DNA of 64,000 bases from an uncultured Rivularia sp. (GTDB taxonomy: Bacteria; Cyanobacteriota; Cyanobacteriia; Cyanobacteriales; Nostocaceae), in NCBI GenBank assembly GCA_963665115.1, contig OY762007.1, positions 224,001 to 288,000 on the forward strand. Direction: 5' to 3'. Shown here piece by piece: positions 33,366 to 56,181 of the stretch (the first letter of the stretch is position 1; each line of letters begins with the position of its first letter). The notes under the pieces were generated by a model. That model was not told where the DNA came from, searched no databases, and saw nothing but the letters and a program-made list of their open reading frames with translations. A program made the position numbers and the translations under genes.

Positions 33366-33474
33366 TAATATTTTCTAATATATTTGAAACACATTTATCA
33401 AGTAAATTTATATCTTGATAGATGTGTTTTTTTATGAGAATTTAGATTCACTTTTAAATAATAAGAATGTAAGA

Positions 33475-38375: not shown

Positions 38376-39579
38376 TTACTCGGCTAATCCCCAAACTTTG
38401 ACTGTTTGATCGCTACTTCCGCTGAACAAATATTTTCCATCTGGGACTTAAGACGATTGAGTTAACTTCTGCTGAATGTCCTGTTAATGTAGCTTGAAGT
38501 TTTCCAGTTCTCCAATTCCAAACTTTGATTGTTGTATCGTTACTAGCGCTGATTAAAGTTTTACCATCTGGGCTAATTGCAAGGGAGTTAACTCCTAAAG
38601 AATGTCCTTCTAAAGTTCGTATTAGTTCTCCTTTCTGCCAATTCCAGATTTTAATTGTATAGTCTCCGCTACCGCTGAATAAGGTTTTTCCGTCTGGAGT
38701 TAGACATAAAGCTTTTATCCAAAATGAATGTCCTTCTAAAGTACGTATTAATTTTTTCTGTGCTTGCCAATCCCAAATTTTGATTGTATAGTCTCCGCTA
38801 CTACTAAATAAAGTTTTTCCGTATACAGTTAAGGAAAATATAGGTTTCGTATGTCCTCGTAAAAGACATTTACGCTTATGATGAGATATATCCCATGCTT
38901 TTATGGTACCTTTTTCATTACCAATAAATAGAATATCACCACTCTTATTAATTGTTAAAGAATGATGCAATCCACTATCATTACGATTTAAAATGTGTTG
39001 AGAATATGGTTCTTTCCAGCTTAATTCTAAAATCAAACCGTTTCTACTGCGAATAAAAACAGTTTCTCTCCGTTGGTTAATACACACAAAGTTAATTGCT
39101 TCGCTATCGTAAGATAAAAAATCCTCGTCATTCATAAAAAGTTTTTTAAATTGCTTTTTCCGCCATTCCCAAATAATAAGGCTGTCTTCACCACCGCTAA
39201 TAACAGTACCGTCGGGAGATATACAAACCGAATTAATTCTAGATTCATGTTCTTCAAGCGTTGAAGTACAATCAAAAATTTGATATTTACTATATTTTTC
39301 TAATTTCTGTACAATTCGCGTTTCCTCTCTTTCTTTCAATATTGAATATGCTATTTTTTTAACCTCTTGTTCATTATCTAGTAAAGCTTTGATTATTAAA
39401 TCTAAACCAGCTTCACTATAATTCAATGCTTGATATAATCCTGCAATTCGTGCTTTCACATCAGGATTCTGTAAGCTTCGTTTAACACCTTCAATTCCTC
39501 CCAAAACTGCACCATCAATAGGAGCTTGATTTCCACCACCAAGCACCACATCGTATTCTCTGGGTTGATTGTCTGACAT
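38376..39579 (-). CDS. N-terminal VLGG/HEAT-like module plus WD40-repeat protein; apparent +1 frameshift at 38443-38445
   Basis: QPREYDVVLGG..GAVLGGIEGVKR; GH...W(D/N) repeats; removing one base gives SPDGKYLFSGSSDQTVKVWGLAE*. Confidence 0.85.
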
Positions 39580-39690
39580 TGCATTTTTACCACTTCAATA
39601 TTATTAGTATTCCCAGTTGTGGAAGGAAGTATTACATTTTATAGGTAAATATTTAAATATATATAACCTCACCCTCAATCCCTCTCCTTG

Positions 39691-40314
39691 TTAAGGAGAG
39701 GGAAGTAATTCTAATTGAATTTCGCATTGTTTAAATATAAAATTGAGCGCTGCAAATAATTTGTTTAAGTCAGATATGGTATAAATATTGATTTCTTTGG
39801 TAAATAAATTATCTGTTAACTTACCAAACTGCCAAACTTGCCCATTAGATACAATACCAAAGACTGATTGTTGCTTTAACGAATCATTTATCTTCTGAAT
39901 CGCTACCATTTCCGATAAACATTGACCCCAACCTTTGATAAAATCATCTTTTTTAGCTTCTACAGCAACAAAAAAAGGTTTGTCAAATACTTCTTTTCCT
40001 AAAGCAGATTTTTTAGCTAATAGATAATCAGGTATTCCCGATAATTTTTCATCGTAAACGAGTGCTTTGTGACTCCATAAAGTGAATTTATCTCGGTAAC
40101 TGCGATAGAGTTCTTTTAAAACGGGAAAAATTATTGCTTCACAAATCGCGTATTCGGATTCGTTATAGTTAAATTCTCTTAATGAGAACATTAATTCTTC
40201 TTGAAAGCTTTCTCTAATTATAAATTCTGTTTCGATGATGAAGTTTTCTTCGGTAGAACTGATATTGTATTCTTTTAAAACTTCGCCGATGTTTTTGTAG
40301 GAATCAAAGGACAT
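39691..40314 (-). CDS. Cyanobacterial PD-(D/E)xK-fold (HsdR_N-like) hypothetical protein
   Basis: SE...CE..IFP, G.PDY, VEAKKDDF..GWGQC..EM, GIVSNG..WQF. Confidence 0.65.
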   Translation of the reverse strand: MSFDSYKNIGEVLKEYNISSTEENFIIETEFIIRESFQEELMFSLREFNYNESEYAICEAIIFPVLKELYRSYRDKFTLWSHKALVYDEKLSGIPDYLLAKKSALGKEVFDKPFFVAVEAKKDDFIKGWGQCLSEMVAIQKINDSLKQQSVFGIVSNGQVWQFGKLTDNLFTKEINIYTISDLNKLFAALNFIFKQCEIQLELLPSP

Positions 40315-40391
40315 TGCGATTTCTATGATGAATTCTTTGATATTATAATTTTAACTGTAATTTATTTAAATAAATTTTGGAATGACTGTAT

Positions 40392-40640
40392 ATGTACAAC
40401 GTAGAAATACCTGACAACCAAGCAGACTTTGCAAAATTACTCCAGCGTGTATTATCCGGGGAAGAAGTAGTAATATCCCAAGACGGTAATCCGATTGCAA
40501 GAGTAGTTCCAATTGCTGATAAATCATTACCACGAATTCCTGGTTTAGATAAAGGTAAAGTGGTGATTGCTTCGGATTTTGATGCTCCTTTACCTGATGA
40601 TATTTTAAATAGTTTTACTAATCCTGTTGATAATTTGTAA
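40392..40640 (+). CDS. Phd/YefM-family antitoxin
   Basis: LLQRV..GEEVVI...G.PIARVVP, DFDAPLP; overlaps the toxin start (TAATG). Confidence 0.88.
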   Translation: MYNVEIPDNQADFAKLLQRVLSGEEVVISQDGNPIARVVPIADKSLPRIPGLDKGKVVIASDFDAPLPDDILNSFTNPVDNL

Positions 40641-41026
40641 TGAAAGCTTTACTTGATACTCATGCTTTTTTATGGTGGGTTACAGAAGATTCTCGGCTTT
40701 CATCTACAGCTAGAAATATAATTACTGATTCTAATAATCAGCTATTTTTAAGTACAGCAAGCGCATGGGAAATTGTAATTAAAGCACGATTAGGTAAATT
40801 AACTTTACCAGAACCACCTGAGATTTACATTCCAAATCGTTTAACGGTAAATAGATTTGAAAGTTTATCAATTCACTTGATTCATGCTTTACAAGTTGTG
40901 AATTTACCAGATTTACACAAAGATCCTTTTGATAGAATTATAATAGCTCAAAGTCAAGTTGAGAAAATGCCGATTTTAACTTCAGATAGTCAAATTAAAC
41001 GGTATTCTGTTGATATTATTTGGTAA
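40640..41026 (+). CDS. vapC: VapC PIN-domain toxin
   Basis: LLDTHAFLW, SAWE, HKDPFDRIIIAQ, TSD. Confidence 0.92.
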   Translation: MKALLDTHAFLWWVTEDSRLSSTARNIITDSNNQLFLSTASAWEIVIKARLGKLTLPEPPEIYIPNRLTVNRFESLSIHLIHALQVVNLPDLHKDPFDRIIIAQSQVEKMPILTSDSQIKRYSVDIIW

Positions 41027-41048
41027 TTATGTGCTTATTTTTCTACTT

Positions 41049-42245
41049 TCAACCCCAGATTTTAACTGTTTTATCTCTACTACAACTAACAAGAGTTTTA
41101 CCATCGGGACTAATTGCTATACTGTAAACCCAATCTGTATGTCCTTCAAGGATACGGATACATTCTCCTGTATGTAAATCCCATATTCTAATTGTTTCGT
41201 CTCTACCACAACTGACAATTGTACTTCCATCAGGGCTGATAGCTACACAATAAACTAAGTCTTTATGTCCTTCTAATGTAAATTGAAGTTTTTTCGTTTC
41301 TAAATTCCAAATTTTTATTGTTTTATCTTTACTACCGCTAACAATTGTCTTATTATCTGGACTGACAGCTACTGATTCAACACCTTTTGAATGTTTCGTA
41401 TTTTTAAAAGTATGTATTAATTCTCCTGTTTCTACATTCCAAGCTTTGACATTTTTATCGTTAGCACCACTGATGATAGTTTTTCCATCTGGACTAATTG
41501 CTAATGCTTGAACCAAATAACTAGAATGTCCGGGAAAAGTATTAATCTGTTCTCCTGTTTTCAAATCCCAGACATGAATTCCAACATTTTGATAAATATG
41601 TTCAGCACCACAGAAAAGTTTATTTCCATTAGAACTAATTGCTAAGGAAAATACTTGATATGAACGTTCTTCTAAGGTCAACAAGCATTCCTTTGTTTTC
41701 AAATCCCATATTTTAATCATATTATCGCGGTCATAAGTACCACCTCTAGTAATAATATTTTTGTCATCAGGGGTAATTAAAATAGTTCTCGGGTATTTAT
41801 GATTTATAGAAGTTGCTTCAACTTTTCCCGTACATAAATCGTATATATTTATAGAGTTTGAACCATCAAAAAACACTTTTCCATTTGAATCAATAGCAAT
41901 ACACCTACTGTTAACATTTGGTAAAGTATGAATACATTCCATCTTTAACCAAGGATTATATTCTTCCAAGGCTTGTTTTACTTTCGCTTCTTCCCTCTCA
42001 CGTAATAGCGAATAAGCAGCAAAACTTACTTTTCCAAGCTCTTTCTGCCAAACTTGAATCACAAACTCTAAACCCACATCTCCATAATTCAACGCTTCTG
42101 AAAGTGCAACAATCTTCTGTTGAATATTCGCTGTTTCCCAACGTCTTTTAACACCTTCAATTCCCCCTAAAACAACACCATCAACAGGAGCTTGATTTCC
42201 ACCACCAAGCACCACATCATATTCTCTAGGTTGATTCTCCGACAT
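41049..42245 (-). CDS. N-terminal VLGG/HEAT-like module plus WD40-repeat protein
   Basis: QPREYDVVLGG..GVVLGGIEGVKRR; about 7 WD40 repeats. Confidence 0.9.
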   Translation of the reverse strand: MSENQPREYDVVLGGGNQAPVDGVVLGGIEGVKRRWETANIQQKIVALSEALNYGDVGLEFVIQVWQKELGKVSFAAYSLLREREEAKVKQALEEYNPWLKMECIHTLPNVNSRCIAIDSNGKVFFDGSNSINIYDLCTGKVEATSINHKYPRTILITPDDKNIITRGGTYDRDNMIKIWDLKTKECLLTLEERSYQVFSLAISSNGNKLFCGAEHIYQNVGIHVWDLKTGEQINTFPGHSSYLVQALAISPDGKTIISGANDKNVKAWNVETGELIHTFKNTKHSKGVESVAVSPDNKTIVSGSKDKTIKIWNLETKKLQFTLEGHKDLVYCVAISPDGSTIVSCGRDETIRIWDLHTGECIRILEGHTDWVYSIAISPDGKTLVSCSRDKTVKIWG

Positions 42246-42527
42246 CACAATTACCTCTCTAAAATCTCTTTCCTCTGCGCTCTCCGCACGCCACTTGCTA
42301 CAAGTCGGGAAACCCGCCCAATGCAGTGGCTTGTCTCTGCGGTTTAATAATTCAATCAGTTAAAACAATTACAAACCTCTTAACTGCGTTCACATCCACC
42401 TGGGGTTGCAAACCCCAGGCTAATAGCGAAAGTCCTATAAATAGGACTAGGATTTTCACGCTTATAATTTAGTAATTTATTTTCAAAATTTTATTTATAT
42501 TCTAAGTATTTATACTAAAAATTCAAA

Positions 42528-44094
42528 TCATTTTAATTTAGCGATCGCCTCTCTCACAATCAAGGCTTTCCCTGTCAATAAATCCCGCACGGTAGCTACC
42601 AACATCCTCTGCTCGTTAACGCCAAATTTTACGGAAACTCTATCGATTCCCAATTCTCCAGGTGGCTCTAAATGCGCTATACAAACTTGTTGATGTTGAG
42701 TATCTAAGGAGCGATAGGTTTCCTGTTTCACTAAATGACTGCTTGTCATTCTTCCTTGAGCATCATAAGTAACTTCAGCTTGAGACATTTCCGCAATTTC
42801 ACCGATGTCGAGACGAATCTCTTTTTGTCCTTCTATGGCTGCCTGTAATATCAATGGTTCGTCAATTCTGGCTTTTTTATCGTTATTCCCTAAATAATTT
42901 GTACCTTTTTCAATCAATGTCATGTAGGAATATTTTTTACTATGGGGTTCCCATAACCGAATTGCATAGCTATGACGCAAATAATCATCGATTTCTACCA
43001 TTTCGTTTAAAGCCAAACCCCCATGTGCTACTGCTTCAAAGGGTTTGTCTAATTTAACTTTCTGTCTGCCAAAATAAGAAACAATCAATTGCTGTACTGC
43101 TTGAATTTGACAGCTACCTCCCACTAATAAAACCTTTTCTATATCCGCTTTGCCGATTCCTTTACTCAAGGCGATCGCTAACACTTCATCTAATGTCTGT
43201 CGCAGTTGCTCTAATAACTGACGATTCTCTAAAATATCTGCTAATTCATTCGGGTTTAACTGCAATTCGTGAGACATAAAATTCTCGTCGTCAAACCAAG
43301 ATTCCTTGGCTTCATTATCTGTGGAAAGCTTCATTTTCAATCTTTCGGCAATTTCCAATAAATTCTGATAACCAATTTCCCCTACTTCTTCCCGACTTGA
43401 ACTTGTTTTTCGCAGATAATCTTCGACAATCCAATTATCGATATCTATTCCACCCACAAAAGCATCGGATTTGGCGATAACTTCCGCACGTACAGATGAA
43501 GATTGAGAATTACTTTTGACGGTACGAACTAAACTTAAATCCAAAGTTCCACCACCGAAATCCACCACCAAAACCAAGCTGCCGGGGCGTTTTACAGCAT
43601 AACCTAAAGCTGCTGCTGTGGATTCATCAACGATTTGCAATTCGGGAATACCGAGCTTTTCACCCAAACCGTTAAACCAATGCAAATATCTTTCAAAAGC
43701 ACCCACGGGAACGGTAAAAATAACTCGACTGGGTTCCAATTGTTGTTTTACGTGACTCCAAATTTCTTTTAAAAACAGTTCCGATATCGCTTCAGCACTG
43801 TAATTAACATCATCCAAAACGCGGGGAGGGGGAACAAAATCCGCCGCTAAATCCCGTTTAAATGCTTGAAAATACCGCTGTGGTTGACTAAAACCCAATC
43901 TTTGAGAGCGTACAGGTTCGCCAAAAATCAAATTATTTGGCGATTTGACGAATACTTGCGAAGGAATCACGCTTACTTGGTTGAAACGACGTGAAAGCGA
44001 ATCAAATTTTAATGTACGCGGTTGTTGAGTAATAGTGTCGGTGGTACAAACAATGGTATTGCTGGTTTCCGAAGTCGATAATTATTGTTGTCAT
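42528..44094 (-). CDS. Atypical Hsp70/DnaK-family protein; apparent +1 frameshift at 44066-44068
   Basis: Corrected N-terminus MTTIIIDFGTSNT; IPS, TVP, ESTAAALGY, VDFGGGTLD, GGIDID, LVGGS; divergent C-terminal beta domain and no helical lid. Confidence 0.88.
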
Positions 44095-44329
44095 GAGTCT
44101 GGTTGTTGAATGTGTGAGGGGGTGGAGGGGGTAGAAAGAGGAATGAGGAATTATTTTAATTACTATAAATTTTGATTTTTGAAACGCAGAGGAATACAGA
44201 GGGAAACGCAAAGGAGCGCAGAGTTTTTTGTTCGTTTTTTTATAATTCCGAAGCAAGGGGAAAAATATTCGCAATTGTGAATGATTTATTCTTCCCCCTC
44301 TACCCCCTCTACCCTCTCTCCCCCCTCTC

Positions 44330-45112
44330 TTACTTCCCACCCGGAAGTGTACGACTAACTTTAGCGGGGGAAAGGATGTTACCTTGATGTTGATATCCTA
44401 TAAAACGGATGTAAACTTTTTCTCCTTGTTGAATATCTCCGGTGTCTGGTTGATGGATTTGGGGATTGTATTCAACTTGTTCCCAAGGTTTACCGATGGG
44501 TTGGTAATCCCATTCTTTTAATAAGTTGTCGAGAGGGGTGAAGCTGGAAAGTAAATTTTTCGCTGGTAATTCTGGTTTTACGTTTACCATCTGATGAATG
44601 CTGGGATAATTGACAAGCAGGGTTTGCAGTTTTTCAAATGTTGATTTACGAAATTCCTGGGTTAATTCAAGTTGCTGCTGTTGTAATTCCGAATGCAATC
44701 GCAAACCATCTTTTCGCAAAGTTTCTTTTTCTTGAGTTAGCTGCTGTAACTGCTGCTGTAATTCCAAACATTCCCGACGCTTCTTTTCTAACTCCGGATG
44801 TGGTGGAAGTATTCCCAATTTATCGAGAAAATTTCCTAATGGGATTGAGAGCGCGATCGCAATTTGTTCCAATTCATCCAAACTCAACGAATTCCCGTCA
44901 CCGTCTCGCAATTTCCATATAGCAGAATTGCTCAAACCGGATTTTTGCTGCAACTCTTTCCAATTAGCAATCTTATTTCGACGCATTAACTCCAAAAGTA
45001 ACTCGTCATTGCGATTTCCCGTAGCGTAGATTTTAGCTAATACAAACCGGATGATAGCAACGGATGTAATTATGATGAGAATGAATATTAATGATGTGTA
45101 GATAATTTTCAT
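44330..45112 (-). CDS. TM + XRE-type HTH + coiled coil + GrpE-like fusion protein
   Basis: N-terminal TM; ELQQKSGLS..AIWKL..G..LEQIAIALSI; C-terminal IG...YNPQIHQ...GY...LSPAKV. Confidence 0.78.
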   Translation of the reverse strand: MKIIYTSLIFILIIITSVAIIRFVLAKIYATGNRNDELLLELMRRNKIANWKELQQKSGLSNSAIWKLRDGDGNSLSLDELEQIAIALSIPLGNFLDKLGILPPHPELEKKRRECLELQQQLQQLTQEKETLRKDGLRLHSELQQQQLELTQEFRKSTFEKLQTLLVNYPSIHQMVNVKPELPAKNLLSSFTPLDNLLKEWDYQPIGKPWEQVEYNPQIHQPDTGDIQQGEKVYIRFIGYQHQGNILSPAKVSRTLPGGK

Positions 45113-45195
45113 ATTTTAAAAGAGATTAATGTAGAGACGTAGCACTGCTACGTCTTGCCAACGTATACCGCACCTAACTGTAATTGCGAATTGTT

Positions 45196-45414
45196 TCAAC
45201 CGTTTTTATTCTTCAAAGATTGATTTTCAGTTGAAGTAATATTTTCCTCCCCTTCGTAATATTCGGGAAGCAATTCTTGACTTTCCACTTCTCCTAAAGC
45301 GTCTTCAATTCCGGAAGTGGTTTCGGTACATCCAGCACCGGAAGCGCCGATGACATTCTCAGTAATTTTACCGTCTTTACCAATGCGATATTCTACTTTC
45401 CTATACTCAGCCAT
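45196..45414 (-). CDS. DUF2997-family protein
   Basis: IGKDGKITE.V.G..G..C...T..IE.ALG.V......EYY. Confidence 0.85.
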   Translation of the reverse strand: MAEYRKVEYRIGKDGKITENVIGASGAGCTETTSGIEDALGEVESQELLPEYYEGEENITSTENQSLKNKNG

Positions 45415-45577
45415 GATTTATTCCTCTGGGTAGATAATACAGTTATAACAATGTAATGGGGCATTGGGCATTGGGCATTGGGAATAGGAAATGGGAATGA
45501 AGAAAACAACTAAGGAGCAAGATGCTCCCACTACGGTTTTTTCTCGCCATCTCACTATCTACCCCCTCTCCCCCCTC

Positions 45578-46423
45578 TCACACTGGAATCCTCTCCAATA
45601 TCCCCTCACCAAAAACTTTATCTAATTCCAAATAATCGAGATGCACGTAACCGATATGACAGTGACAGGTTTGGTTACTACAATCACGCTCTCGTAATAC
45701 TTGCTGCCAATCTTGGTGATAAATATTACCAATGGGCTGTTTAATAAAATGGCATCTCCTCATCGTACCTTCACCGTCAACGGAAATCATCGATTTACCA
45801 GCGCGACAGGAACGCCCAAAGCTGGGATAATGATGGGTGTTGAGGTGATAAAGTGGATCGATGGATTCAAAGAATTTTCTGTCTGATGGTGATAATTGAG
45901 AAATTTGTTTTTTGACAGCATTAATCCACAGATAAACGTGAGAGGGTAATTCCTGACGTAAAGCTGCAATTTCGTTTTTGTACTGGGGAAATCCGACAAC
46001 ACCAGCACTAAAACGAACTTTACGTTTATCTAATTCCAGACATTGGGAAACATAACTTTGACGGGATACCCATTCGGGATGAAAAGTAGCCCATAACGCT
46101 AAAGTATCCTTGTTGCAATCTTCCACCCAATCCAAATTACAGGAGAGATTGGTTTGAATTGCGGCTTTGTTAACGTGAGACATTTGGGTTAAGTTAACTA
46201 AAGCTTGTTGATAGTGCTTGTGGATGAGAGCTTCACCCCAAGGAGTAAATAAAATCGAAAATTGATGCTGGGGATGTTGGGAAATCCAATCTACGAAACG
46301 TTGTAATTGTTGTTTGTCAATGTTTGATTCCGCTGCTGTTTGTTGACGTTTGGCGAAGGGACAATATTCGCATCCGTAGTTACAGCTGATGAGGGAACCT
46401 CGGTAGAGGATTTTTAGGTGCAT
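45578..46423 (-). CDS. Radical SAM protein, STM4011-like
   Basis: ILYRG.L.SCNYGCEYCPF (CxxxCxxC), FTPWGEAL, QTNLS, C-terminal Cys cluster CRAG..RRCHF..C...CHCHIG. Confidence 0.85.
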   Translation of the reverse strand: MHLKILYRGSLISCNYGCEYCPFAKRQQTAAESNIDKQQLQRFVDWISQHPQHQFSILFTPWGEALIHKHYQQALVNLTQMSHVNKAAIQTNLSCNLDWVEDCNKDTLALWATFHPEWVSRQSYVSQCLELDKRKVRFSAGVVGFPQYKNEIAALRQELPSHVYLWINAVKKQISQLSPSDRKFFESIDPLYHLNTHHYPSFGRSCRAGKSMISVDGEGTMRRCHFIKQPIGNIYHQDWQQVLRERDCSNQTCHCHIGYVHLDYLELDKVFGEGILERIPV

Positions 46424-46444
46424 TTTTTGGTTTTTATTTAGGGT

Positions 46445-47719
46445 TTAAAATTCTAATAAGTAATCGAGATAATCTGGATCTTGTCTATCAGCTATAACTT
46501 CGATATCTAATTGTTTTAACCGTTCAACCATTTCATCGCTTAAATAATTATCGGAAACATCAAGGGTATCTAAATTTTTTATAAATGGACAATTTAATAA
46601 AGCTTCTGCACCTTCGTCATTTATACTTCCCATTGAAAGGTCTAATTCAACTAAATTTTCAATAATCGAAGAATCTACTATTCCAAAAGGGACATGATTT
46701 AAGTCCTCAAGGTTATTTTTACAGTTACGTATTCCCAAGTACTTAAGCTTAGGAAATATTTTAGAAAAAACTTGCATAAGTTCTTTAATACCCATGCGAG
46801 AATAAGTAGAACCGTTCTCACTTGTAATAGACCACAACTCAAAATATTCTAATGCTGGCAATTCAAGATTATGAATTTCAAAGATTAATTCCATATCAAT
46901 TCTCTTGCATTCAATAATTAGTGCTTTTAAATTTTCATGTCGAATAGAGTTTATTTCTAATCCCAATCTCTTTTCATTATAAGTGTATGTTTTACAATTA
47001 CTAAACCTAATTTTAAGAATTTCTAAATTTGGATAAGCTAATAAAATATAGCTAATATTAATATTTTCAATTGGATAGTATTCTCTATCATGAATATTTT
47101 CTATACATAATGCTTTAAGATTTGTTAGATTTTCACTAGCATTTAACAACGCATCTATAAGAGATAAATCTTTTGTATACCAAAATCCTAATACCAAAGC
47201 TTTTATCTGGTGAGCTAAAGGATTTTTTTGTAATATTTGTAATTTTTCTGTACTAATAAGGTTTTTCGGAGACAAATCCCAATCAGATACTCTTATAGCA
47301 TAAGCTGTGTTAATCGTATCAGTAATACCAATTTCGGGGTCAAATTCTATTACCTTTCGATTAGCAAATGTAGTTGCATGATTCGTTGAGAATTTATAAC
47401 TTTTTTCAAAGCTAGTCCAGAATTTATAATCTTTTAAAGCTTGTTTGACGTGAATTTCTTCTTTATCTTGTAATAATTTATAAGTGTATTTTCTAATTTG
47501 TTCAGAATCATGTTTCAAGGTCTTAATTAACGTCTTTAAACCCACATCTCCATAATTCAAAGCATCATTCAAAGCTGCAATTTGCGCGTCAACATTAGAA
47601 CTCGACAAACGCCTTTTTACACCTTCAATTCCTCCTAAAACCGCGCCGTGAATTGGCGGTGGTGCGTTTCCTCCGAGTACTGCGTCGTATTTGTTGGGTT
47701 GGTTTTGGTTGTTTGTCAT
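46445..47719 (-). CDS. N-terminal VLGG/HEAT-like module plus divergent STM4015-like LRR protein
   Basis: QPNKYDAVLGG..GAVLGGIEGVKRR; LKAL, YPNLEILKI, LPALE, LKYLGIRN, LDLSMG, LDVSDNYL. Confidence 0.82.
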   Translation of the reverse strand: MTNNQNQPNKYDAVLGGNAPPPIHGAVLGGIEGVKRRLSSSNVDAQIAALNDALNYGDVGLKTLIKTLKHDSEQIRKYTYKLLQDKEEIHVKQALKDYKFWTSFEKSYKFSTNHATTFANRKVIEFDPEIGITDTINTAYAIRVSDWDLSPKNLISTEKLQILQKNPLAHQIKALVLGFWYTKDLSLIDALLNASENLTNLKALCIENIHDREYYPIENINISYILLAYPNLEILKIRFSNCKTYTYNEKRLGLEINSIRHENLKALIIECKRIDMELIFEIHNLELPALEYFELWSITSENGSTYSRMGIKELMQVFSKIFPKLKYLGIRNCKNNLEDLNHVPFGIVDSSIIENLVELDLSMGSINDEGAEALLNCPFIKNLDTLDVSDNYLSDEMVERLKQLDIEVIADRQDPDYLDYLLEF

Positions 47720-47891
47720 TTTTATCCACCATTAATTTACTAAATAACCGAAAAAACTCCGCGCTCCTCTGCGTTAAGCTCAGCGCTCCTCTGCGTTTAA
47801 AAAATATGTTGTTGGTTTATCAAAATATTGAATTGTGATTTCACGTTGGGGAGACGTAGCAGTGCTACGTCTCTACACAGGTGTCAGGTTG

Positions 47892-49266
47892 TCATTTCAA
47901 TTCATATCTCTGCATCAATTCCCTAACTTTGCTAGAAAACAACCATTCCCCAATCGCATCGGAATATTCCACACCAGTTTGAGTCAATCGCAATATTCTG
48001 CTGTCATTAACAACTAAATTCAAATCAATTAGCTCCGATAACTCCGGAAAATCGCTAAATAATTCTGTATTAAATTGCGTTTGATATTGATGTAAATTCA
48101 ATCCTTCATGAGAAAGTAATGACAATAAAATGTACCTTCTGCGCTTCTCTTCAGCATCCAGCTGAAAACCGTAATTAACAAAATCAAAGGAATCTTCCGG
48201 TGTTTGAATATACCCTTGCAAAATCTCGCTGATTCCCTTTCCTCCAACAGCGTATTCGTTGGAATAATGCAAATCATCAGTATAAGAAACGCGCTCCGCA
48301 TCCGATTCCGACCATTCCGTCTTGTTGACAACAGTAAACAGGTTCCTGATGTAGAGACGTTATACATAACGTCTCCTCCGTGTTGCGCTGGAACATTCGC
48401 ATTGATTTTTGGGTGTATCCTTGTGATAAAAGAAAATCCCTTCCTTGACGGTAACAATTCAAGCGGATGTCATCCCATTCTTTTTCTGATGTTCCCAATC
48501 CGGTGAGGGGACGCACGTACAGGGGATACAAAAATATTTCTTCTGGTTCAAACTGCAATGCAGCCCGTATCGATTGCAACCAGGTGTCTACTGTTTGTCC
48601 GGGTAATCCGTAGATTAAATCAATGTTGATTGTGGGAAAACCGGCGGCTCGCATTCTTGTTAGTGCGGCTTCTACTTCGGCGGTGGTTTGACGGCGGTTA
48701 ACTGCTGCAACCTCGGATTCAAAGAAGCTTTGGACTCCGATACTGGCACGGGTAACTCCTCGCGATCGCAACAACCTTAACTTATCTTTGGTAGCGGTTT
48801 CCGGTGACATTTCCACGGATATAGGAATCTGTTGTAAATCCGCGCCCATCGTATCTTCGGCAACATTCAACACGGTTTCTAAATGGTGAATCGGTAACTG
48901 AGTCGGTGTACCTCCACCAATAGCGAGACGTGCAAATGAACTTTTACCCAAAACAGCTTTGACGTGTTTGGCTTGTTTTTGTAGGGTATTGACGTATTGA
49001 GTCACAAAATCTTCATTGTGGGTGACTGTGGTAAATAAATTGCAGAAACCACACCTCATTTCACAAAATGGGATGTGAATGTAGAGGAATAAAGCGTTTT
49101 TGTCTTCTTGACTCCAGACATCGGTGAGGGGTTTTCGGGGGGAAATCGGACGATAAGCGGTTTTGTGGGGGTAGGAATAAACGTAGGATTGGAAGATTTT
49201 GGATTTTAATAAAGGATGGGTTGGCAACGGATGGCGGATTGGTAACGGATGGTTGTTGGTTATCAT
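47892..49266 (-). CDS. HemN-like (class C) radical SAM protein, STM4012-like; apparent +1 frameshift at 48287-48289
   Basis: YVYSYPHKTAYR, LYIHIPFCEMRCGFCNLF, GGGTPT, SIGVQSF, IDLIYGLPGQ, YCCQ..GMVG.GCGAR; corrected frame ARSYTDDLHYS joins the 47892-48272 ORF. Confidence 0.85.
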
Positions 49267-49381
49267 GATTGAGGTTTTGGTATAGATGTTTGTGAGATAT
49301 TGCGTTACTCGTTACCACGCTCTGCGTGGTAATGCGTATCTGGAGGCTCTGCCTCCGGTATATAAAAGGCAGAGCCTTTTG

Positions 49382-50203
49382 TCATGCATTCCCAGGTGAA
49401 ACCTGGGAACGAGAAAGGTGAGTCTCCAACACAAATTCCCCATAAGGAACAGTCCACACGACGGGATGACTAACCCGGTGTCCGGTGTAACCATCTTCAC
49501 CGTATGTTGTTCCGTGGTCGGAGGTGAGTATGCAGAAGGTAGAAGCACGTTTTTGTAAGGCATTCCAGAGTTTTCCTAGTTGAATGTCGATGTATTCCAA
49601 AGCGGCGGCATGAGTTGCTAATGTGTCTGTTTTAGCACCTTCAAGGTAAAAGTAATTGGGTTGATGAAGGGCGGAAATATTAATAAATAAGAATAAACGT
49701 TGACTTTGAGGAGTTTTATTGAGGATTTTCTCGGCTAATAGGATTTGATTTTCTGTAGATTTTGGATCGGTAACTCCTAATTCTCGATTCCAGTAACTTT
49801 CTGCGAACATTGAAGGAATCACGTTACTCAAGGGATTCTGTTTGTTGAAAAATCCTACACCACCAATACAAACGGTATGATAACCCTTGCGCGATAATCC
49901 TTTAACTATATTTTCACCTTCTAAAAGACAAGTTTTTTCCGTAGTTGTGGTACTTCCGGCGAATTTCAAAGCGAACAATCTGGGGTGAATTCCTGGAGTG
50001 ACGGGAGTAGGAAGAAAACCCGCGAAAAATGCTTGATGGGATGCATAAGTAAAACTTCCCGGTGAATGTCGTTTTTCCCAACCATTTGGTAATACCTTGG
50101 CTAAATTTGGAGTGCGGTTTTGTGAAAGTAAATCTGTTGCGATGTCGTAGCGGAGGGTGTCGAGGGTGATGAATACGATGTCGTGGGTGCCGATGATTTG
50201 CAT
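49382..50203 (-). CDS. Alkaline phosphatase/sulfatase-superfamily hydrolase, STM4013-like
   Basis: ITLDTLRYD, SFTYASH, HQPN, TSDHGT.YGE, GH metal-site motifs. Confidence 0.85.
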   Translation of the reverse strand: MQIIGTHDIVFITLDTLRYDIATDLLSQNRTPNLAKVLPNGWEKRHSPGSFTYASHQAFFAGFLPTPVTPGIHPRLFALKFAGSTTTTEKTCLLEGENIVKGLSRKGYHTVCIGGVGFFNKQNPLSNVIPSMFAESYWNRELGVTDPKSTENQILLAEKILNKTPQSQRLFLFINISALHQPNYFYLEGAKTDTLATHAAALEYIDIQLGKLWNALQKRASTFCILTSDHGTTYGEDGYTGHRVSHPVVWTVPYGEFVLETHLSRSQVSPGNA

Positions 50204-50334
50204 TTTTTTAGAGGGGGGAGAGGGGGGAGAGGGGGGAGAGGGGGTAGAGGGGGTAGAGGGGGTAGAAAAGATAGATTTGGTTAAGAAGTGGGAATTATAG
50301 GGGGGAAGGTTTCATTTAATAAGGTTTTTAATTT

Positions 50335-50727
50335 GTGAATACAGAAAGAAAGGTATTTAGAAGTCATGAGGAATTGGTTGTATTTCAATTGGCTTTTGAT
50401 TCATCAATGGCTATTTATAATATTTCTAAAAAGTTTCCTAAAGAAGAAACATATTCTTTAACAGATCAAATTCGTCGCTCTTCGCGTTCGGTATGTGCTA
50501 ATTTAGCGGAAGCATGGAGAAAAAGAAGATATCAAGCCTCTTTTATTGCAAAGCTAAGTGATAGCGAAGCAGAAGCTGCTGAAACTCAAGTTTGGATAAA
50601 ATTCGCTGTTAAATGCTCCTATATAGAAATTGAACAAGCTAGAGAACTATATAAAACCTACAATCAAATCCTGAAAGGCTTAGTAAACATGATTCACAAC
50701 TCCGAAAAATGGACAATCAAAAAATAA
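50335..50727 (+). CDS. Four-helix-bundle (23S rRNA IVS protein/Avd-like) protein
   Basis: L.VFQ.A, FPKEETYSLTDQIRRSSRSVCANLAEAW, EAAETQVW. Confidence 0.9.
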   Translation: MNTERKVFRSHEELVVFQLAFDSSMAIYNISKKFPKEETYSLTDQIRRSSRSVCANLAEAWRKRRYQASFIAKLSDSEAEAAETQVWIKFAVKCSYIEIEQARELYKTYNQILKGLVNMIHNSEKWTIKK

Positions 50728-50777
50728 CTTAACTTACACTTTCATCTTCCCAACATTTTTGTTTTGAATTAATTAAT

Positions 50778-52017
50778 CTACCCCCTCTCCCCCTCTACCC
50801 CCTCTACCCCCTCCCTTCTTCCCAACAATGCTTTCACCTCACTCATATAAGTATCCATCCCATTCCACAAAATCCCCGGCAACAAATCCCCAAAAGCATT
50901 AATTTCCAAAACCGCGTGTTGTTCCCAATCCGGTAAAATCATCAAGTCAACTCCGCAATATAAACTATTAGGAAATAAAGCAGCAGCTTCTTCACAAGTA
51001 CGTTTAATTTTCTGCCAATTCTCATCACCAACTTTGTCTAAAAATTCATTTATATTTCCTCTTTCGTTACCCAAATGTAAGTTAGTCATCGGACTTTTTC
51101 CCAAACGAACAACTGTATGTTGTGCTTCACCATCGATAACCACAACTCGCAAATCAAAACCGCATCCTTGTAACCGTGCTTTCGGTAGCCATTCCTCAAC
51201 AATTACCCCTTCGGCAGTTAAAATATTGATAATATCGGCGATTTCTTCGCGTTTTGTATAGTTACGAATTCTGCGGGAGTTATACAGTAAAGTTTCCCCG
51301 TCTTCTCGTACTCTTTCCACGGTAGTGATAGCCGATTCAAAGCGGGAATTAGCGCGGTAAGCGATGACACCAGAAGCGCTCGAACCGTGAGATAATTTTA
51401 TGAAAACCCGTTCCAAACCTTGAGATTGCATTTGTTCGCGCAGATGTTCGTAACAGTGGATTTTACCCAAACTACGCGCTACGGGAACGTTATTTTTGCT
51501 AAATATTTCGTGACACCTTGGTTTGTCAAACATTACCGCAATATCACGGGGATGATTCATAACTTTATTCTCCCCTCTACTTAAACAAGGAGAGGGGTTG
51601 GGGGTGAGGTTTCAATTCCTGTTCCCATCGTTGCAACAAATTTCGCCATCCCAAATACCACTGTCGCGGATAAAGAATCCTTCCCTTATCAAACTCCAAC
51701 TTCTCAACTTCATTAGAAGTAATCCGTTGATAATTATTATTTTCTACCCCCTCTTCCCCCTCTTCCCCCTCTTCCCCCTCTCCCCCCTCTAACTCCTCCC
51801 CAGCAGCAATAATCGCTTTATCAACCTCAAAGTTTTTCTCCGGAGAATCAAAGCGGATGATATTGTTGGGTTTGAATTGTTCGAGGTTTTGTTCACCTGT
51901 AATTAAGTCTGCATAGGATATGACGGTTGCGGGTGGTAGGTTGAGGTTTGCAAGTGCTTGTTGGAGGAATCCGACGCGACGGTTTTCGGGGTTGGCTATG
52001 ATAGTTAGGGTTTTCAT
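50778..52017 (-). CDS. ATP-grasp protein, STM4014-like; apparent +1 frameshift at 51583-51585
   Basis: N-part NPENRR, RFDSP, YPRQWY; C-part FDK, KLSHGSSASG, VEEWLPK, DLRVVV, PMTNLH, GVD, LEINAFGDL; removing one T joins the parts (LSLLSRGENKVMNH). Confidence 0.82.
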
Positions 52018-52032
52018 GGGGTTGATGGTGGT

Positions 52033-53271
52033 TTATTCAGATAATGCCCAATAACGCATACTAGATTCATCCTCATTTTGAGGATGTGCAATTAAGCAGC
52101 AATCAGGAGGTGATAATTGTTCAACTTCTTCAATAAATTCTTTAGTCACGTAGTTATGAGAAATATTAAAGGTATATAAATTAGAAAGGCTAGGGACTTC
52201 AAGTAAGGTTTCTAAACCTTCATCACTTAAATTTCCCATCGATAAATCAAGTATTAAAAGATGACCAATTATAGGATTGTCAGCCATAAAAGAAGATTCT
52301 GTAATCGCATTAGCAATTTCATCAGCATATTTGCTGCTATGTATTCCTAAATAGCTTAGTTTCGGAAATGATTCGCTAAAAAGAATTGGCTTCAAATTTT
52401 TAATCACATTGTTTAAGCTATTTTCAAATTGCCTACCTATCTCTATTTCAAAGCATCCATCTATCCATAAATCCAAATATTCTAAAGCAGGTAAATTCAG
52501 CGAACACATCATCTGAAACTCAATGTTTCCAATGTATGTCGTTTCAATAACAAGTGTTTTTAAATTATCATGTGCTAATATGCTACATTCCAAATGATTA
52601 CAACAACCACGAAGGTGCAAAATTTCTAAATTTGGATAACCTTCTAACAATAAATTGATATCACCAATCCCAAAATAAGATTGCCTAGATTCGTATCTTT
52701 GCTCATCACCTAAGAATAAAGCTTTTAAATTAGATAAGCTTCTGCGATTGTCAAAAATAGTATTAACAAAATCATAATATTCTTGATATATTTTGCATTT
52801 ATAAGAATGATTCTGTAAATAACAAATCAAAGCTTCAACTTCATTTACCCTATTGTCTTGGATTAAAAGTTTTAATTTCTCCAAATTCACAACATAAGCT
52901 TTACCCTCTGGATTCACAATTCCAATTTCAGAATCAAACTCTTCAACTTCCCAATCATTCAACTTCGTAAAATACAAATAAGGATCGAATTTCAACAGCG
53001 CTTGTTTACCCTTTTCACCTCCCCTTTCCTTTAACAACCTCACAGCAAAACTTTTTACCTGTAATGAATCATCTTCCAACGCTTCAATCACCAAATCTAA
53101 ACCCGCTTCCCCATAATTCAAAACATCCGAAAGCGCTTTAACTCGTACATCTACAATTTCACTTTCTAACCGTCGCTTAACTCCTTCAATTCCTCCCAAC
53201 ACAGCACCCGTAACCGGAGGTGGGTTGTTTCCGCCTAAAACTGCGTCGAATTCTCTTGGCTGTTGTGACAT
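52033..53271 (-). CDS. N-terminal VLGG/HEAT-like module plus STM4015-like LRR protein
   Basis: QPREFDAVLGG..GAVLGGIEGVKRR; LKALFLGD, YPNLEILHLRG, LKTLVIET, LDLSMGNL; ends RYWALSE. Confidence 0.85.
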   Translation of the reverse strand: MSQQPREFDAVLGGNNPPPVTGAVLGGIEGVKRRLESEIVDVRVKALSDVLNYGEAGLDLVIEALEDDSLQVKSFAVRLLKERGGEKGKQALLKFDPYLYFTKLNDWEVEEFDSEIGIVNPEGKAYVVNLEKLKLLIQDNRVNEVEALICYLQNHSYKCKIYQEYYDFVNTIFDNRRSLSNLKALFLGDEQRYESRQSYFGIGDINLLLEGYPNLEILHLRGCCNHLECSILAHDNLKTLVIETTYIGNIEFQMMCSLNLPALEYLDLWIDGCFEIEIGRQFENSLNNVIKNLKPILFSESFPKLSYLGIHSSKYADEIANAITESSFMADNPIIGHLLILDLSMGNLSDEGLETLLEVPSLSNLYTFNISHNYVTKEFIEEVEQLSPPDCCLIAHPQNEDESSMRYWALSE

Positions 53272-53344
53272 GATAGTTTTGTTTTGATGATAATATTAGG
53301 TTTCCCAAAATATTTTAAAATTTATCTTTTGCTTTTGGATTCAT

Positions 53345-53469
53345 ACCCGCTTGCGGTTGCAAACCACAAGCTAATAGCAGAAGTCCATTAAAATGGACTG
53401 AAAATTGTAATTTTTTAGTCCTATTTATAGGACTTTCGCTATTAGCCTTGGGTTTGCAACCCAAGGTGG
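53345..53469. mobile_element. About 125-bp palindromic MITE/REP-like element, family B; second copy 54782-54907, half copies 42396-42449 and 12314-12345
   Basis: Inverted halves GGTTGCAAACC-GCTAATAGC-AGTCC..GGACT / AGTCC..GGACT-GCTATTAGC-GGGTTTGCAACCC. Confidence 0.7.
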
Positions 53470-53476
53470 TTTAAGG

Positions 53477-54724
53477 TTATTCCCACACAGAATAATATCG
53501 ATCGCAAAATTGCCCATTTGTAATCACTTGACAATCTAATTCGGATAATTTTTGAATCATCTTTGTTTGTAAACGGTTTCCAGAAACGTTAAAAGTATGT
53601 AAATTATTAATTGCAGAATTCCCAAGTATAGCCATTGCACCACCGCTTCCCATATTTCCATCTGTGAGTTCAAGTACTTTCAAATTTTTCATGATTGGCG
53701 AATTAATAATAGCTTTGGCTAATTGACTTGTATTGTTGCTTTTCCTAATCGCTAAATACGCTAAGTTTTCACAATATTTACCTGATAAGATTGGTGCAAG
53801 ACTATCAATATTTACCTCTTTTAATTTATTTCTACTTACCCAAATCTCAAGGTATTCTAAAGATGGTAAATTTAAATTGCACAGTTCCGCTAGATTTTTA
53901 TCAGTTATACCATCAGCATCAATAATTAAGGTTTTTAAATAATCGTGTTTTATAGCTTTTGGTTTAACAAGAGATTTATTCTTGATATTACGGATTGCTA
54001 AAATTTTATTGTCAGATACCAAAATATCTTCATTAAGCATTTTACCCCGAATATGAAGTATTTCAAGATTCGGATATGCTTTGAGTATCGGATAAATATT
54101 ACAAACGTTAATCCTGGAATATTTATATTTTTTATTCCATGTTTCGCAATTATCTCCAATGAATAAAGCTTTTAAGCTCACAAGTTTATCTTTAGCATCT
54201 GCAAGTAAATCAACAAAGTTTTTAAAAGAATTTTTATGATTTTTGTCTTGATAATATATCTCAAATCTGAACGCTTCTAAATATTTGGCTCTCTTATAGT
54301 GTATTAATCTATTAAAATCGTATATATCGCTTATAGCATATACTGCATCATCTATAGTATTAATGAGTTTGTTGTGAGAAAAATATTCTTCATGTTGCCA
54401 ATTATCAAAAGTTGTAAAAACTAACCAAGGATCAAATTCTAATAATGCTTGTTTTCCTTTATTTTCAGACTTGCGTAAAATCGAAATAACTTTATTATTT
54501 ATCTCTTCCGATGAATCTCCTAAAGCTTCAATAACTAAATCTAACCCTTCATCCCCATAATTCAAAGCATCCGACAAAGCCTTAATTCGCACATCTACAA
54601 TTTCACTTTCCAACCGTCGCTTTACCCCTTCAATTCCTCCTAACACAACACCCGTAACCGGAGCCGGATTTTTCCCACCTAAAACTGCGTCGAATTCCCT
54701 TGGTTGATTTTTATTGCTATTCAT
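53477..54724 (-). CDS. N-terminal VLGG/HEAT-like module plus STM4015-like LRR protein
   Basis: QPREFDAVLGG..GVVLGGIEGVKRR; LKALFIGD, YPNLEILHIRG; ends RYYSVWE. Confidence 0.85.
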   Translation of the reverse strand: MNSNKNQPREFDAVLGGKNPAPVTGVVLGGIEGVKRRLESEIVDVRIKALSDALNYGDEGLDLVIEALGDSSEEINNKVISILRKSENKGKQALLEFDPWLVFTTFDNWQHEEYFSHNKLINTIDDAVYAISDIYDFNRLIHYKRAKYLEAFRFEIYYQDKNHKNSFKNFVDLLADAKDKLVSLKALFIGDNCETWNKKYKYSRINVCNIYPILKAYPNLEILHIRGKMLNEDILVSDNKILAIRNIKNKSLVKPKAIKHDYLKTLIIDADGITDKNLAELCNLNLPSLEYLEIWVSRNKLKEVNIDSLAPILSGKYCENLAYLAIRKSNNTSQLAKAIINSPIMKNLKVLELTDGNMGSGGAMAILGNSAINNLHTFNVSGNRLQTKMIQKLSELDCQVITNGQFCDRYYSVWE

Positions 54725-54918
54725 TTTTTTATTATTTGATATTTGCTAAAAAACTTTTGACAAATTTGGCGTTGATATTCACACCTGCTTACGGTTGCAA
54801 ACCGCAAGCTAATAGCAGAAGTCCATTAAAATGGACTAATTGACTTGAATTATTCAGTCCTATTTATAGGACTTTTGCTGTTAGCCTTGGGTTTACAACC
54901 CAAGGTGATTTAGGGTTT

Positions 54919-56181
54919 TCACTCAGTCACAGCACAATACCGATATCCATATTCTTCTTCATCATGCTCGTCATTTTGCTTCTCTGCTAACAATTGACAA
55001 TTAAGCGTAGACAAATCATCAACCATTTCATCTGATAAACGAGCTTCGGAAACGTTAAGAATATCAAGCTCGTTTACCGCTGCACAACTAAGCAAAATTT
55101 CCGCACCTTCATCACTCAAATTTCCCAAAGATAGATCGAGTACGCTAATCGTTTCAATTAAAGGAGATTTAATTACAGCTGCTGCAATATCATCCGCAAA
55201 TTGACTGTTACGCAATCCTAAATAATTCAAATCGGGAAATACTAAATCTTTAACAATCGGTTTTACGTCTACAACCGTACAATCTCCACCATAGTTGTCG
55301 CTACCAAACCATAATTCTAAATGCTCTAATGCTGGGAGATTCATGTTGCAAATTTGAGCAACTGCTTGAGGCTCTAATCCCCCAGTTTCTACAATTAGCG
55401 TTTGTAAATTGTTGTGTCGCACTGGTGCATTGAATTGTAATCGCTCTCCCCCGCGTATTTGCAATACTTCTAATTGAGGATAAGCTCTCAAAATCGGACT
55501 TACATCTCCTTGTGCAATCCAAGATATTTCGCTTTCTTCGTAGTGAATGTCACCAATAAATATGGCTTTTAAGTTAGTTAATTTATCCTTAGCATCGACA
55601 AGCCCATCAACGATTTCATTGCTACCAATTTCCCTATCATCACTCCACAAACCAATAATCAAAGCTTCTAATTGACTGGCTCGCGAATCTTGCAAAATAC
55701 TTGTAATTTGTTCTGCTATGGAAGGGCGACTACCATCCCAATCCCATCGTAAAGCATAAGCTGTATTCGCAGCGTCTTCAATCCCAACTTCCGAAGAATA
55801 ATCAACAACCTGACGATTAGCAAACCGCTCGGCGTGCAACCCTTTATACCCCCTATATCCCTGCAATCGCTCAAATAAATCCCAAGGTTGATATTCTCGC
55901 AACGCTTGCTTAACCTTTGCTTCTTCTCTACGTCGCAATAACTTATAAGCATGACGCTGTAATATCTTCGGTTTATTTTGCAATGCTTGAATCACCAACT
56001 CCAAACCAACTTCTTGATAGTTAAGAGCATCGGTAAGCGCTGCCAATTTTACGTCTGCTACCGGATTCGATAACCTACGCTTTATCCCCTCAATTCCACC
56101 TAACACCGCACCATGAATCGGAGGTGGAGATTGTCCCCCCAAGACAGCATCATATTTTCCCGGTTGTTGATTCTCTGGCAT
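54919..56181 (-). CDS. N-terminal VLGG/HEAT-like module plus the most canonical STM4015-like LRR protein
   Basis: QPGKYDAVLGG..GAVLGGIEGIKRR; LEALIIGLW, FIGDI..EESEISWI.QGDV, LIVETGGL, LELWFG...YGG; ends RYCAVTE. Confidence 0.87.
   Translation of the reverse strand: MPENQQPGKYDAVLGGQSPPPIHGAVLGGIEGIKRRLSNPVADVKLAALTDALNYQEVGLELVIQALQNKPKILQRHAYKLLRRREEAKVKQALREYQPWDLFERLQGYRGYKGLHAERFANRQVVDYSSEVGIEDAANTAYALRWDWDGSRPSIAEQITSILQDSRASQLEALIIGLWSDDREIGSNEIVDGLVDAKDKLTNLKAIFIGDIHYEESEISWIAQGDVSPILRAYPQLEVLQIRGGERLQFNAPVRHNNLQTLIVETGGLEPQAVAQICNMNLPALEHLELWFGSDNYGGDCTVVDVKPIVKDLVFPDLNYLGLRNSQFADDIAAAVIKSPLIETISVLDLSLGNLSDEGAEILLSCAAVNELDILNVSEARLSDEMVDDLSTLNCQLLAEKQNDEHDEEEYGYRYCAVTE

What the first reader, a model, noticed from the sequence alone, without database searches (positions are those of the whole stretch)
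38376..56181. Shared ~95-aa N-terminal 'double-VLGG' module on six proteins with swappable WD40 or LRR C-termini (F-box-like architecture)
Seen: genes starting at 39579, 42245, 47719, 53271, 54724 and 56181 all begin QPx(E/K)(Y/F)D(A/V)VLGG-x4-P-xxG(A/V)VLGGIEG(V/I)KR. This is followed by a helical segment of consensus AL.DALNYG..GL..VI.AL...L.....KQAL. Two proteins then carry WD40 propellers and four carry LRRs. A near-invariant N-terminus with a divergent C-terminus is the pattern of an adaptor or docking tag. Inference: it is analogous, not necessarily homologous, to F-box-WD40/F-box-LRR substrate receptors or effector-associated domains, and docks different sensors onto a common partner such as the AAA pore, DUF1257/DUF2997 or Hsp70. 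I do not recognise a named domain for the first 30 residues; the helical part resembles HEAT/PBS repeats.
Basis: partly seen in the sequence, partly recalled or inferred. Interest (0 to 1): 0.85.

Follow-up and report, generated by a model that had tools for sequence, protein, structure and literature searches.

The report
Docking tag of a chaperone-ATPase system
Six neighbouring cyanobacterial genes share a 95-residue N-terminal module whose twin 'VLGG' peptide is kept only in genomes that also carry a particular AAA-ATPase/Hsp70 gene set and also appears in some phage proteins, so it is likely a docking tag that would plug interchangeable binding domains into an undescribed, possibly antiviral, protein-remodelling machine.

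Summary
Observation confirmed. All six genes carry the module, and six more lie elsewhere in the genome (FGE-sulfatase, TPR and unknown C-termini). The module has two parts: a twin-VLGG peptide predicted to be unstructured, and five GUN4-N/HEAT-like helices. It is not a mere cap: four genomes have the same STM4015 LRR protein without it.

Among 301 sampled genomes, all 33 with an intact twin motif carry the window's DUF1257 clade, nearly always with its Ycf46-like AAA ATPase and lidless Hsp70. The two module-bearing genomes without that system have eroded the motif but kept the helices. The first motif recurs on the AAA's N-terminal tail (16 of 33 sequences). The second survives in a natural Hsp70-WD40 fusion. 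Several phage proteins carry the motifs, and in one phage group the same tandem motif sits on two unrelated carriers.

Best reading: a docking tag for this system, probably in conflict with phage. Binding and function are untested, and the receptor is not identified. The scan noted this system and tag before on other DNA (e1-8372808). I found no paper describing it.

The parts
55882..56181 (-). Module copy on the STM4015-family protein 54919-56181 (passes NF038076 cut-off)
54425..54724 (-). Module copy on STM4015-like protein 53477-54724
52981..53271 (-). Module copy on STM4015-like protein 52033-53271
47417..47719 (-). Module copy on STM4015-like protein 46445-47719
41949..42245 (-). Module copy on WD40 protein 41049-42245, directly downstream of the Hsp70-like gene; model: residues 1-28 low confidence, helices 29-95
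39286..39579 (-). Module copy on WD40 protein 38376-39579 (ORF stops at 38413 after a frameshift near 38444)
35719..37338 (+). Ycf46-like AAA+ ATPase of the system-specific clade; Walker A/B, sensor-1 and arginine-finger motifs present (motif names recalled); this copy lacks the N-terminal motif-1 tail
37493..37867 (+). DUF1257 (Ycf35-like), system-specific clade
37941..38348 (+). Second DUF1257 paralogue
42528..44094 (-). Hsp70-like protein ending after a substrate-binding beta domain, without a helical lid; frameshift near 44067
44330..45112 (-). GrpE-like protein with a hydrophobic N-terminal helix and an HTH insert
45196..45414 (-). DUF2997
45578..52017 (-). STM4011-STM4014 genes (two radical SAM enzymes, hydrolase, ATP-grasp), interleaved with module-bearing STM4015 copies; a passenger operon, not the module's core partner

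Best explanation
The shared N-terminus is likely a docking tag: its twin VLGG peptide, predicted to be unstructured, would bind the core of a five-gene machine found beside it (Ycf46-like AAA ATPase, DUF1257, DUF2997, a GrpE-like protein and a lidless Hsp70), so that the interchangeable C-terminal binding domains would deliver bound targets for ATP-driven remodelling, possibly during phage infection. Shown: module anatomy, cargo swapping, co-occurrence with the core, motif erosion where the core is missing, and motif copies on the AAA tail, in an Hsp70 fusion and in phage proteins. Inferred: physical docking; motif 1 as the tether to the Hsp70 substrate domain (about 45%, against DUF1257/DUF2997 30%, AAA 15%, other 10%); the helices as a spacer or second contact; hand-over to the AAA ring; an anti-phage role (about 50%).
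For: Co-occurrence in the same 301 genomes: module 35, DUF1257 clade 36, both 33; AAA clade both 32; Hsp70 clade both 30. G119 and G279 have syntenic Hsp70 copies below my cut-off, and G115 has a contig-edge AAA. The two module-only genomes, G135 and G243, have lost one or both motifs but kept the helices. 4 of 4 STM4015 genes in genomes without the core start at the module/cargo junction. The motifs are the most conserved columns (top-residue frequency about 0.8, against 0.56 in the helices) yet have pLDDT 50-60 and no secondary structure. A motif-1-like sequence lies on 16 of 33 AAA tails, with some lineage-matched variants. Motif 2 is kept, and motif 1 and the helices are lost, in the Hsp70-WD40 fusions of G249 and G281. 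GUN4 and FGE cargos mix within a 100/98 clade of near-identical modules. Phage carriers.
Against: Kin are not independent: 10 of the 33 genomes, and 10 of the 16 AAA tails, are one genus. My clade cut-offs and the tail pattern were set after seeing the data. The window's own AAA and 16 others lack the tail motif. G099 keeps an intact module without the Hsp70 clade, and G191 and G121 keep Hsp70/GrpE without a module. Six of the 12 copies in this genome, and 24 of 63 GTDB loci, have no core gene in the fetched flank. No PADLOC model matches beyond generic AAA, Hsp70 and WD40 similarity. No cultured phage carries the module. No toxic or enzymatic effector is typical among the cargos. The host of the tandem-motif phage group is not established.
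Confidence: 0.62

Rival explanations
1. Same docking tag and core, but the job is stress proteostasis or signalling (like canonical Ycf46), not conflict. The phage copies would be captured host DNA or a way to use the host chaperone.
For: Canonical Ycf46 is reported as a KaiC-interacting, stress- and ppGpp-induced ATPase (PMC13683863, passages). Cargos include GUN4 and receiver domains. The core genes are well conserved (AAA mean column identity 79%). The GrpE-like protein has a predicted membrane anchor.
Against: Patchy presence with frequent decay within genera. Rapid cargo swapping. The cargo repertoire matches conflict-system sensors in Kaur et al. 2020. A motif-only tail is retained on unrelated phage carriers.
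Confidence: 0.22
2. The module works by homotypic assembly, like EAD or death domains: each peptide binds the helices of another module, and the AAA tail joins the same polymer.
For: Tandem arrays of module genes. The EAD principle. A few proteins carry two helical copies.
Against: The motifs erode when the core is lost even though the helices remain. The fusion keeps motif 2 with no helices. The core never carries a whole module in the loci read.
Confidence: 0.08
3. The module is a generic folding cap or expression leader spread by duplication of gene starts, and co-occurs with the core only through shared ancestry of one gene island.
For: The helices are generic HEAT/GUN4-N-like. The ancestral arrangement puts modules inside the island. 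Lineage-matched AAA tails could come from copied gene starts.
Against: Module-free STM4015 orthologues exist. Cargos have unrelated folds. The motif is intact in unlinked copies but eroded in genomes without the core.
Confidence: 0.05
4. The Gly-Gly motifs are leader or substrate sites for the STM4011-14 radical-SAM/ATP-grasp enzymes or for a double-glycine peptidase.
For: The operon is interleaved with four module genes here and in many Nostoc/Rivularia loci. The resemblance to double-glycine leaders is recalled.
Against: The operon occurs in only 2 of 35 module genomes, and 4 of 6 operon genomes lack the module.
Confidence: 0.03

Closest known systems
Effector-associated domains (EADs) of NTP-dependent conflict systems (Kaur et al. 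2020, PMC7159879; section 30 read, passages elsewhere)
   Same: Small non-enzymatic terminal module repeated on many proteins per genome, correlated with a chaperone/AAA core, with FGS, GUN4, WD40, TPR and pentapeptide partners.
   Different: No named EAD model matches. The core is Ycf46/DUF1257/DUF2997/GrpE/Hsp70, not MoxR-vWA or a GTPase. The conserved part is a short peptide, and only single motifs, never the whole module, sit on core proteins.
GUN4 N-terminal ARM-like domain (PF16416; PDB 1Y6I, 1Z3X, 1Z3Y) and HEAT-PBS/alphaRep repeats
   Same: Residues 27-100 superpose on it (Z 9.9, rmsd 2.3, 74 residues; Foldseek TMq 0.61 but E 0.85); weak Pfam matches.
   Different: No solved structure aligned to the twin-VLGG peptide; the helical match may reflect only a common arrangement.
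Canonical Ycf46 (Slr0374), Ycf35/DUF1257 and the DUF2997-ycf35-fed7 cluster (PMC4284462 and PMC13683863, passages)
   Same: Same protein families; the genome holds other paralogues of each.
   Different: This is a separate patchy paralogue set joined to a private Hsp70/GrpE pair and tagged cargos.
DnaK-GrpE-DnaJ with ClpB (recalled), and F-box adaptors (recalled)
   Same: Hsp70, exchange factor and AAA ATPase together; a constant docking part with a variable substrate-binding part.
   Different: No J-domain gene recurs in the loci read, the Hsp70 lacks a lid, the AAA is Ycf46-type, and there is no F-box match.
STM4011-STM4015 operon (NCBIfam NF038073-76, NF006067)
   Same: All five families are present in the window.
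   Different: Here STM4015 is multiplied and tagged; in four other cyanobacteria it is single and untagged.

Membership tests
EAD (Kaur 2020) | Small, non-enzymatic, mostly helical terminal domain | tested here: met
   About 95 aa, five predicted helices, N-terminal in 142 of 150 representatives
EAD (Kaur 2020) | Further copies elsewhere in the genome, correlated with the core system | tested here: met
   12 copies in G000; 33 of 35 module genomes have the DUF1257 clade
EAD (Kaur 2020) | One copy always fused to a core component | tested here: not met
   Only a single motif on 16 of 33 AAA tails and in 2 Hsp70 fusions; none on the window's core proteins
EAD (Kaur 2020) | Adjacent or lineage-specific copies are closest relatives | tested here: inconclusive
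   True for G299, G074, G119 and the window's WD40 pair; other G000 and G189 copies are unresolved; bootstrap had not settled
Named EAD / bacterial death-like families | Match to a Pfam EAD model | tested here: not met
   Six N-termini at E<=10 hit only HEAT_2, GUN4_N, NLE and DUF676
EAD (Kaur 2020) | Homotypic interaction | not testable with these tools
GUN4_N (PF16416) | Score above the gathering cut-off of 24.3 bits | tested here: inconclusive
   Best single copy in G000 22.2 bits; one two-copy relative 26.6; top fold hit in both searches but Z 9.9
F-box | Match to F-box profile | tested here: not met
   No F-box match for the module
F-box | Binds Skp1/cullin ubiquitin ligase | not tested
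   No such partner searched
STM4015 family (NF038076) | Score at or above 275 bits within an STM4011-14 operon | tested here: met
   54919-56181 scores 304; the three paralogues score 137-151 and do not pass
DGR-diversified CLec targets | Template repeat with adenine-biased mismatches to the FGE 3' end | tested here: not met
   No template-like match for the module-FGE genes of G000, and no RT hit with one narrow recalled motif

The most novel reading that the evidence does not exclude
Many filamentous and some unicellular cyanobacteria carry an undescribed immune machine in which swappable sensors plug, through a short peptide tag, into a membrane-anchored Hsp70/GrpE and Ycf46-type unfoldase, and cyanophages have evolved decoy copies of the tag to jam it.
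Probability: 0.3. Interest if true: 0.9.

Novelty: new variant of a known kind. Interest (0 to 1): 0.72.

Why it matters
It supplies a defined peptide, candidate receptors and natural loss, fusion and phage-copy controls for the long-orphan Ycf46/Ycf35/DUF2997 families, which are also kept in red-lineage plastids. A two-glycine mutant and a pull-down would test it directly. If the phage copies are decoys, they point to a new defence system and its counter-defence. A tag that routes any fused domain to an Hsp70/AAA machine would also be a useful tool.

Tried and rejected
1. Complex prediction (module with the Hsp70 substrate domain) was not available; no binding model exists.
2. AlphaFold2 of an AAA with a motif-1 tail left residues 1-19 and the C-tail below pLDDT 50 in a mediocre model (mean 64, 31 sequences). 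This gives no support for docking in cis and is no evidence either way.
3. Sequencing runs: no RNA holder listed. Close relatives L149/L187 have intact copies; others are broken at various genes.
4. Bare twin-motif DNA scans of viral contigs gave 24 matches. Only 2 are true (the contigs of L140 and L141); 22 were judged chance, 7 of them RecA.
5. The cultured-phage collection had no credible module match. The host of the tandem-motif phages was not found.
6. No DGR signal.
7. A GrpE-like profile did not hit canonical GrpE by hmmsearch, and a single-sequence PDB search failed. Only hhalign supported it (E 0.001, above 60 of 60 controls).
8. Six weak matches (G068, G071, G107, G165, G185, G229; E 7e-7 to 9e-6, mostly helices only) were dropped before counting.
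9. Literature searches returned no description of the module or system. The library lacks most subscription papers, and I did not read the supplements of Kaur 2020/2021 or Vallota-Eastman 2020, where the module could appear under another name.
10. The second Atlas query did not complete.
Full report
Observation. Identity between copies falls from 55-80% in residues 1-40 to 36-57% in 41-98 and 16-37% in the rest. A profile finds exactly 12 copies in the 8.69-Mb genome. The six outside the window carry FGE-sulfatase (4), TPR (1) or an unassigned C-terminus (1). Close relatives are named Rivularia/Calothrix. The 'LRR' cargos are STM4015-family proteins inside an STM4011-STM4015 operon.

Anatomy. 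No Pfam or NCBIfam model covers the first 30 residues. AlphaFold2 with 93 sequences gives five helices at residues 29-95 (pLDDT about 88) and no secondary structure, with pLDDT 50-60, for residues 1-28. The helices resemble HEAT-PBS/alphaRep repeats by sequence and the GUN4 N-terminal domain by fold. That is the top hit in both fold searches, but Foldseek E is 0.85 and Z is 9.9, which for helical bundles may mean only a common arrangement. The two Atlas neighbours without a name and one named GUN4-N are cyanobacterial clusters. The unstructured part is the most conserved: three glycines are invariant in 93 sequences, and the top-residue frequency is about 0.8 in both motifs against 0.56 in the helices. 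High conservation without a fold of its own is what a binding peptide would show (inference).

Cargo range. The representative search gave 108 proteins at E<=1e-30. The module starts within 30 residues of the N-terminus in 142 of the 150 listed. I scanned 111 of the 150 against Pfam and counted by eye 37 beta-propeller, 11 GUN4, 8 FGE-sulfatase, 5 receiver-domain, 4 TPR and 1 pentapeptide proteins; many have no Pfam family. In a tree of 69 modules (cargo labels from my own rules, bootstrap unsettled), a 100/98 clade of 11 near-identical modules holds 9 FGE and 2 GUN4 cargos, which points to recent swapping.

The partner system. The window holds a Ycf46-like AAA ATPase, two DUF1257, DUF2997, a GrpE-like protein with a hydrophobic N-terminal helix, and an Hsp70-like protein that ends after its beta substrate domain. 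The genome has other paralogues of each elsewhere. In 40 regions fetched around module matches, DUF1257 lay in 20, the AAA in 17, and Hsp70-like and GrpE-like genes in 14 each, often as one operon. 39 of 63 GTDB loci had at least one core gene, one of them only an HTH fragment.

Co-occurrence. In one sample of 301 phylum genomes, 41 matched the module at E<=1e-5. I dropped 6 weak rows and counted 35. The window's DUF1257 clade is in 36 genomes, 33 shared; the AAA clade in 36, 32 shared; the Hsp70 clade in 36, 30 shared. Cut-offs were mine, set from paralogue scores, and 10 of the shared genomes are one genus, so I give no P value.

The exceptions are informative. G135 and G243 have a module but no core, and they have lost one or both motifs while keeping the helices. 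G249 and G281 have the core but no module; there the Hsp70 is fused to motif 2 plus a WD40 propeller, without motif 1 or the helices. G165 is fragmented, with its core on a 3-kb contig. Against a strict Hsp70 link: G099 has an intact module, AAA and DUF1257 but no Hsp70 of the clade, and G191 and G121 have Hsp70/GrpE only.

Not a cap, not a radical-SAM substrate. STM4013 passes its cut-off in 6 of 301 genomes. Four of these lack the core, and in all four the single STM4015 begins at the point where the module ends in the window's protein. So the LRR occurs without the module, and the operon is a passenger that became tagged where the core is present.

Motif on the core. A motif-1-like sequence lies in the N-terminal tail of 16 of 33 AAA sequences, from five genera with 10 from one; the window's own AAA lacks it. 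The loose pattern, written after seeing the data, hits 26 of 5,293 N-termini in this genome, a count that can include the module copies themselves. Some variants match those in the same genome's modules. This fits a shared receptor, or copying of gene starts. An AlphaFold2 model left the tail unstructured.

Phage copies. An IMG/VR scan matched 31 stretches and confirmed 5.
- L140 and L141 encode about 200-aa proteins starting with the twin motif and degenerate helices (motif profile 52 and 41 bits). Both contigs are rich in the cyanobacterial HIP1 octamer (octamer recalled; 25 copies each), and L141 lies among baseplate and tail genes. Two further relatives exist.
- L142-L144 encode a phrog_554 protein ending in two copies of motif 1 with no helices. 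381 of 393 phage records with that carrier domain are named cyanophages. The profile scores (25-36 bits) are borderline for so large a collection.
- An exact scan for motif 1 gave 5 hits, all in frame near protein ends: those three, a related phage (L237) with the same tandem motif on an unrelated carrier, and one uncertain single motif (L238). Keeping the tail while the carrier changes argues that the peptide acts on its own.
- These phages' host is not established. Looser scans gave 22 chance hits in 24, and no cultured phage has the module.

Mechanism. Most likely the cargo binds a target and the peptide docks on the core. The Hsp70, recycled by its membrane-anchored GrpE-like factor, would then pass the complex to the AAA ring with DUF1257/DUF2997 as cofactors. 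Loss of motif 1 on fusion to Hsp70 suggests motif 1 is the Hsp70 tether and motif 2 binds something else, but this rests on two genomes of one genus. Patchiness, decay, cargo turnover and phage copies favour conflict. The stress role of canonical Ycf46 (PMC13683863, passages) and the lack of toxic cargos favour proteostasis. All binding steps are inferred.

Known or new. It works like the effector-associated domains of Kaur et al. 2020 (PMC7159879; section 30 read, passages). It matches no named EAD and fails the 'whole copy on a core protein' criterion, so I do not file it as one. Kaur 2021 (passages) and Vallota-Eastman 2020 (passages; mentions ARM-repeat and GUN4-like N-termini on CLec proteins) do not define it in what I saw; their supplements were not read. 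PMC4284462 and PMC13060386 (passages) treat DUF1257/DUF2997 as uncharacterised. Eight literature searches found no description. This scan has noted the system on other DNA, once with the same N-terminal tag; a search of those notes for a phage mimic found nothing.

Verdict. A real module and a well-supported genomic partner system; the mechanism is plausible but untested. New variant of a known kind, interest 0.72.

Noticed in passing
window 38376-39579, 42528-44094, 47892-49266, 50778-52017: Four genes are split by frameshifts, two of them in short homopolymer runs; other split genes occur elsewhere in the genome (L002, L004). Assembly error is plausible but unproven.
   Followed up: partly
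window 37300-37338 and loci L035-L124, L131, L132: The system's AAA usually ends in an extra helix and an acidic tail (P-L/I-E/Q-V-D in many), reminiscent of Hsp70/Hsp90 EEVD tails (recalled). The two genomes with this AAA but no DUF1257 clade or module (G195, G293) lack the extension.
   Followed up: partly
L079:10397-12943, L080:2940-5486: Natural 849-aa fusion of the Hsp70-like protein, motif 2 and a WD40 propeller.
   Followed up: yes
L237:1180-1536; L142:5915-6379: Related phages keep the same tandem motif at the C-terminus of unrelated carrier proteins in the same gene neighbourhood.
   Followed up: partly
L060:10154-10882: Pentapeptide-repeat-like gene with motif 1 only, lying between a module gene and the AAA.
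   Followed up: no
G000:C1:4866237-4867850 and 8400591-8401262: A second lidless Hsp70-like gene, with relatives in about 120 of 301 sampled genomes, and an unlinked HTH-GrpE-like gene without the hydrophobic helix; possibly the housekeeping counterparts.
   Followed up: no
window 33415-34452: 345-aa protein with two cysteine-containing repeats and weak HNH-like similarity (Cas9 HNH stretch, E 3e-5), just downstream of the ATP synthase genes.
   Followed up: no
window 39691-41026 and 50335-50727: An unassigned 207-aa gene that recurs beside module genes in other loci, a Phd/PIN toxin-antitoxin pair and a four-helix-bundle gene are inserted in the cluster.
   Followed up: no
L154-L168, L172, L189, L199: Many Nostoc genomes join the tagged STM4015 operon and the core in one island with several tagged genes (up to nine within the fetched stretch), including unassigned 200-280 aa cargos.
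   Followed up: partly
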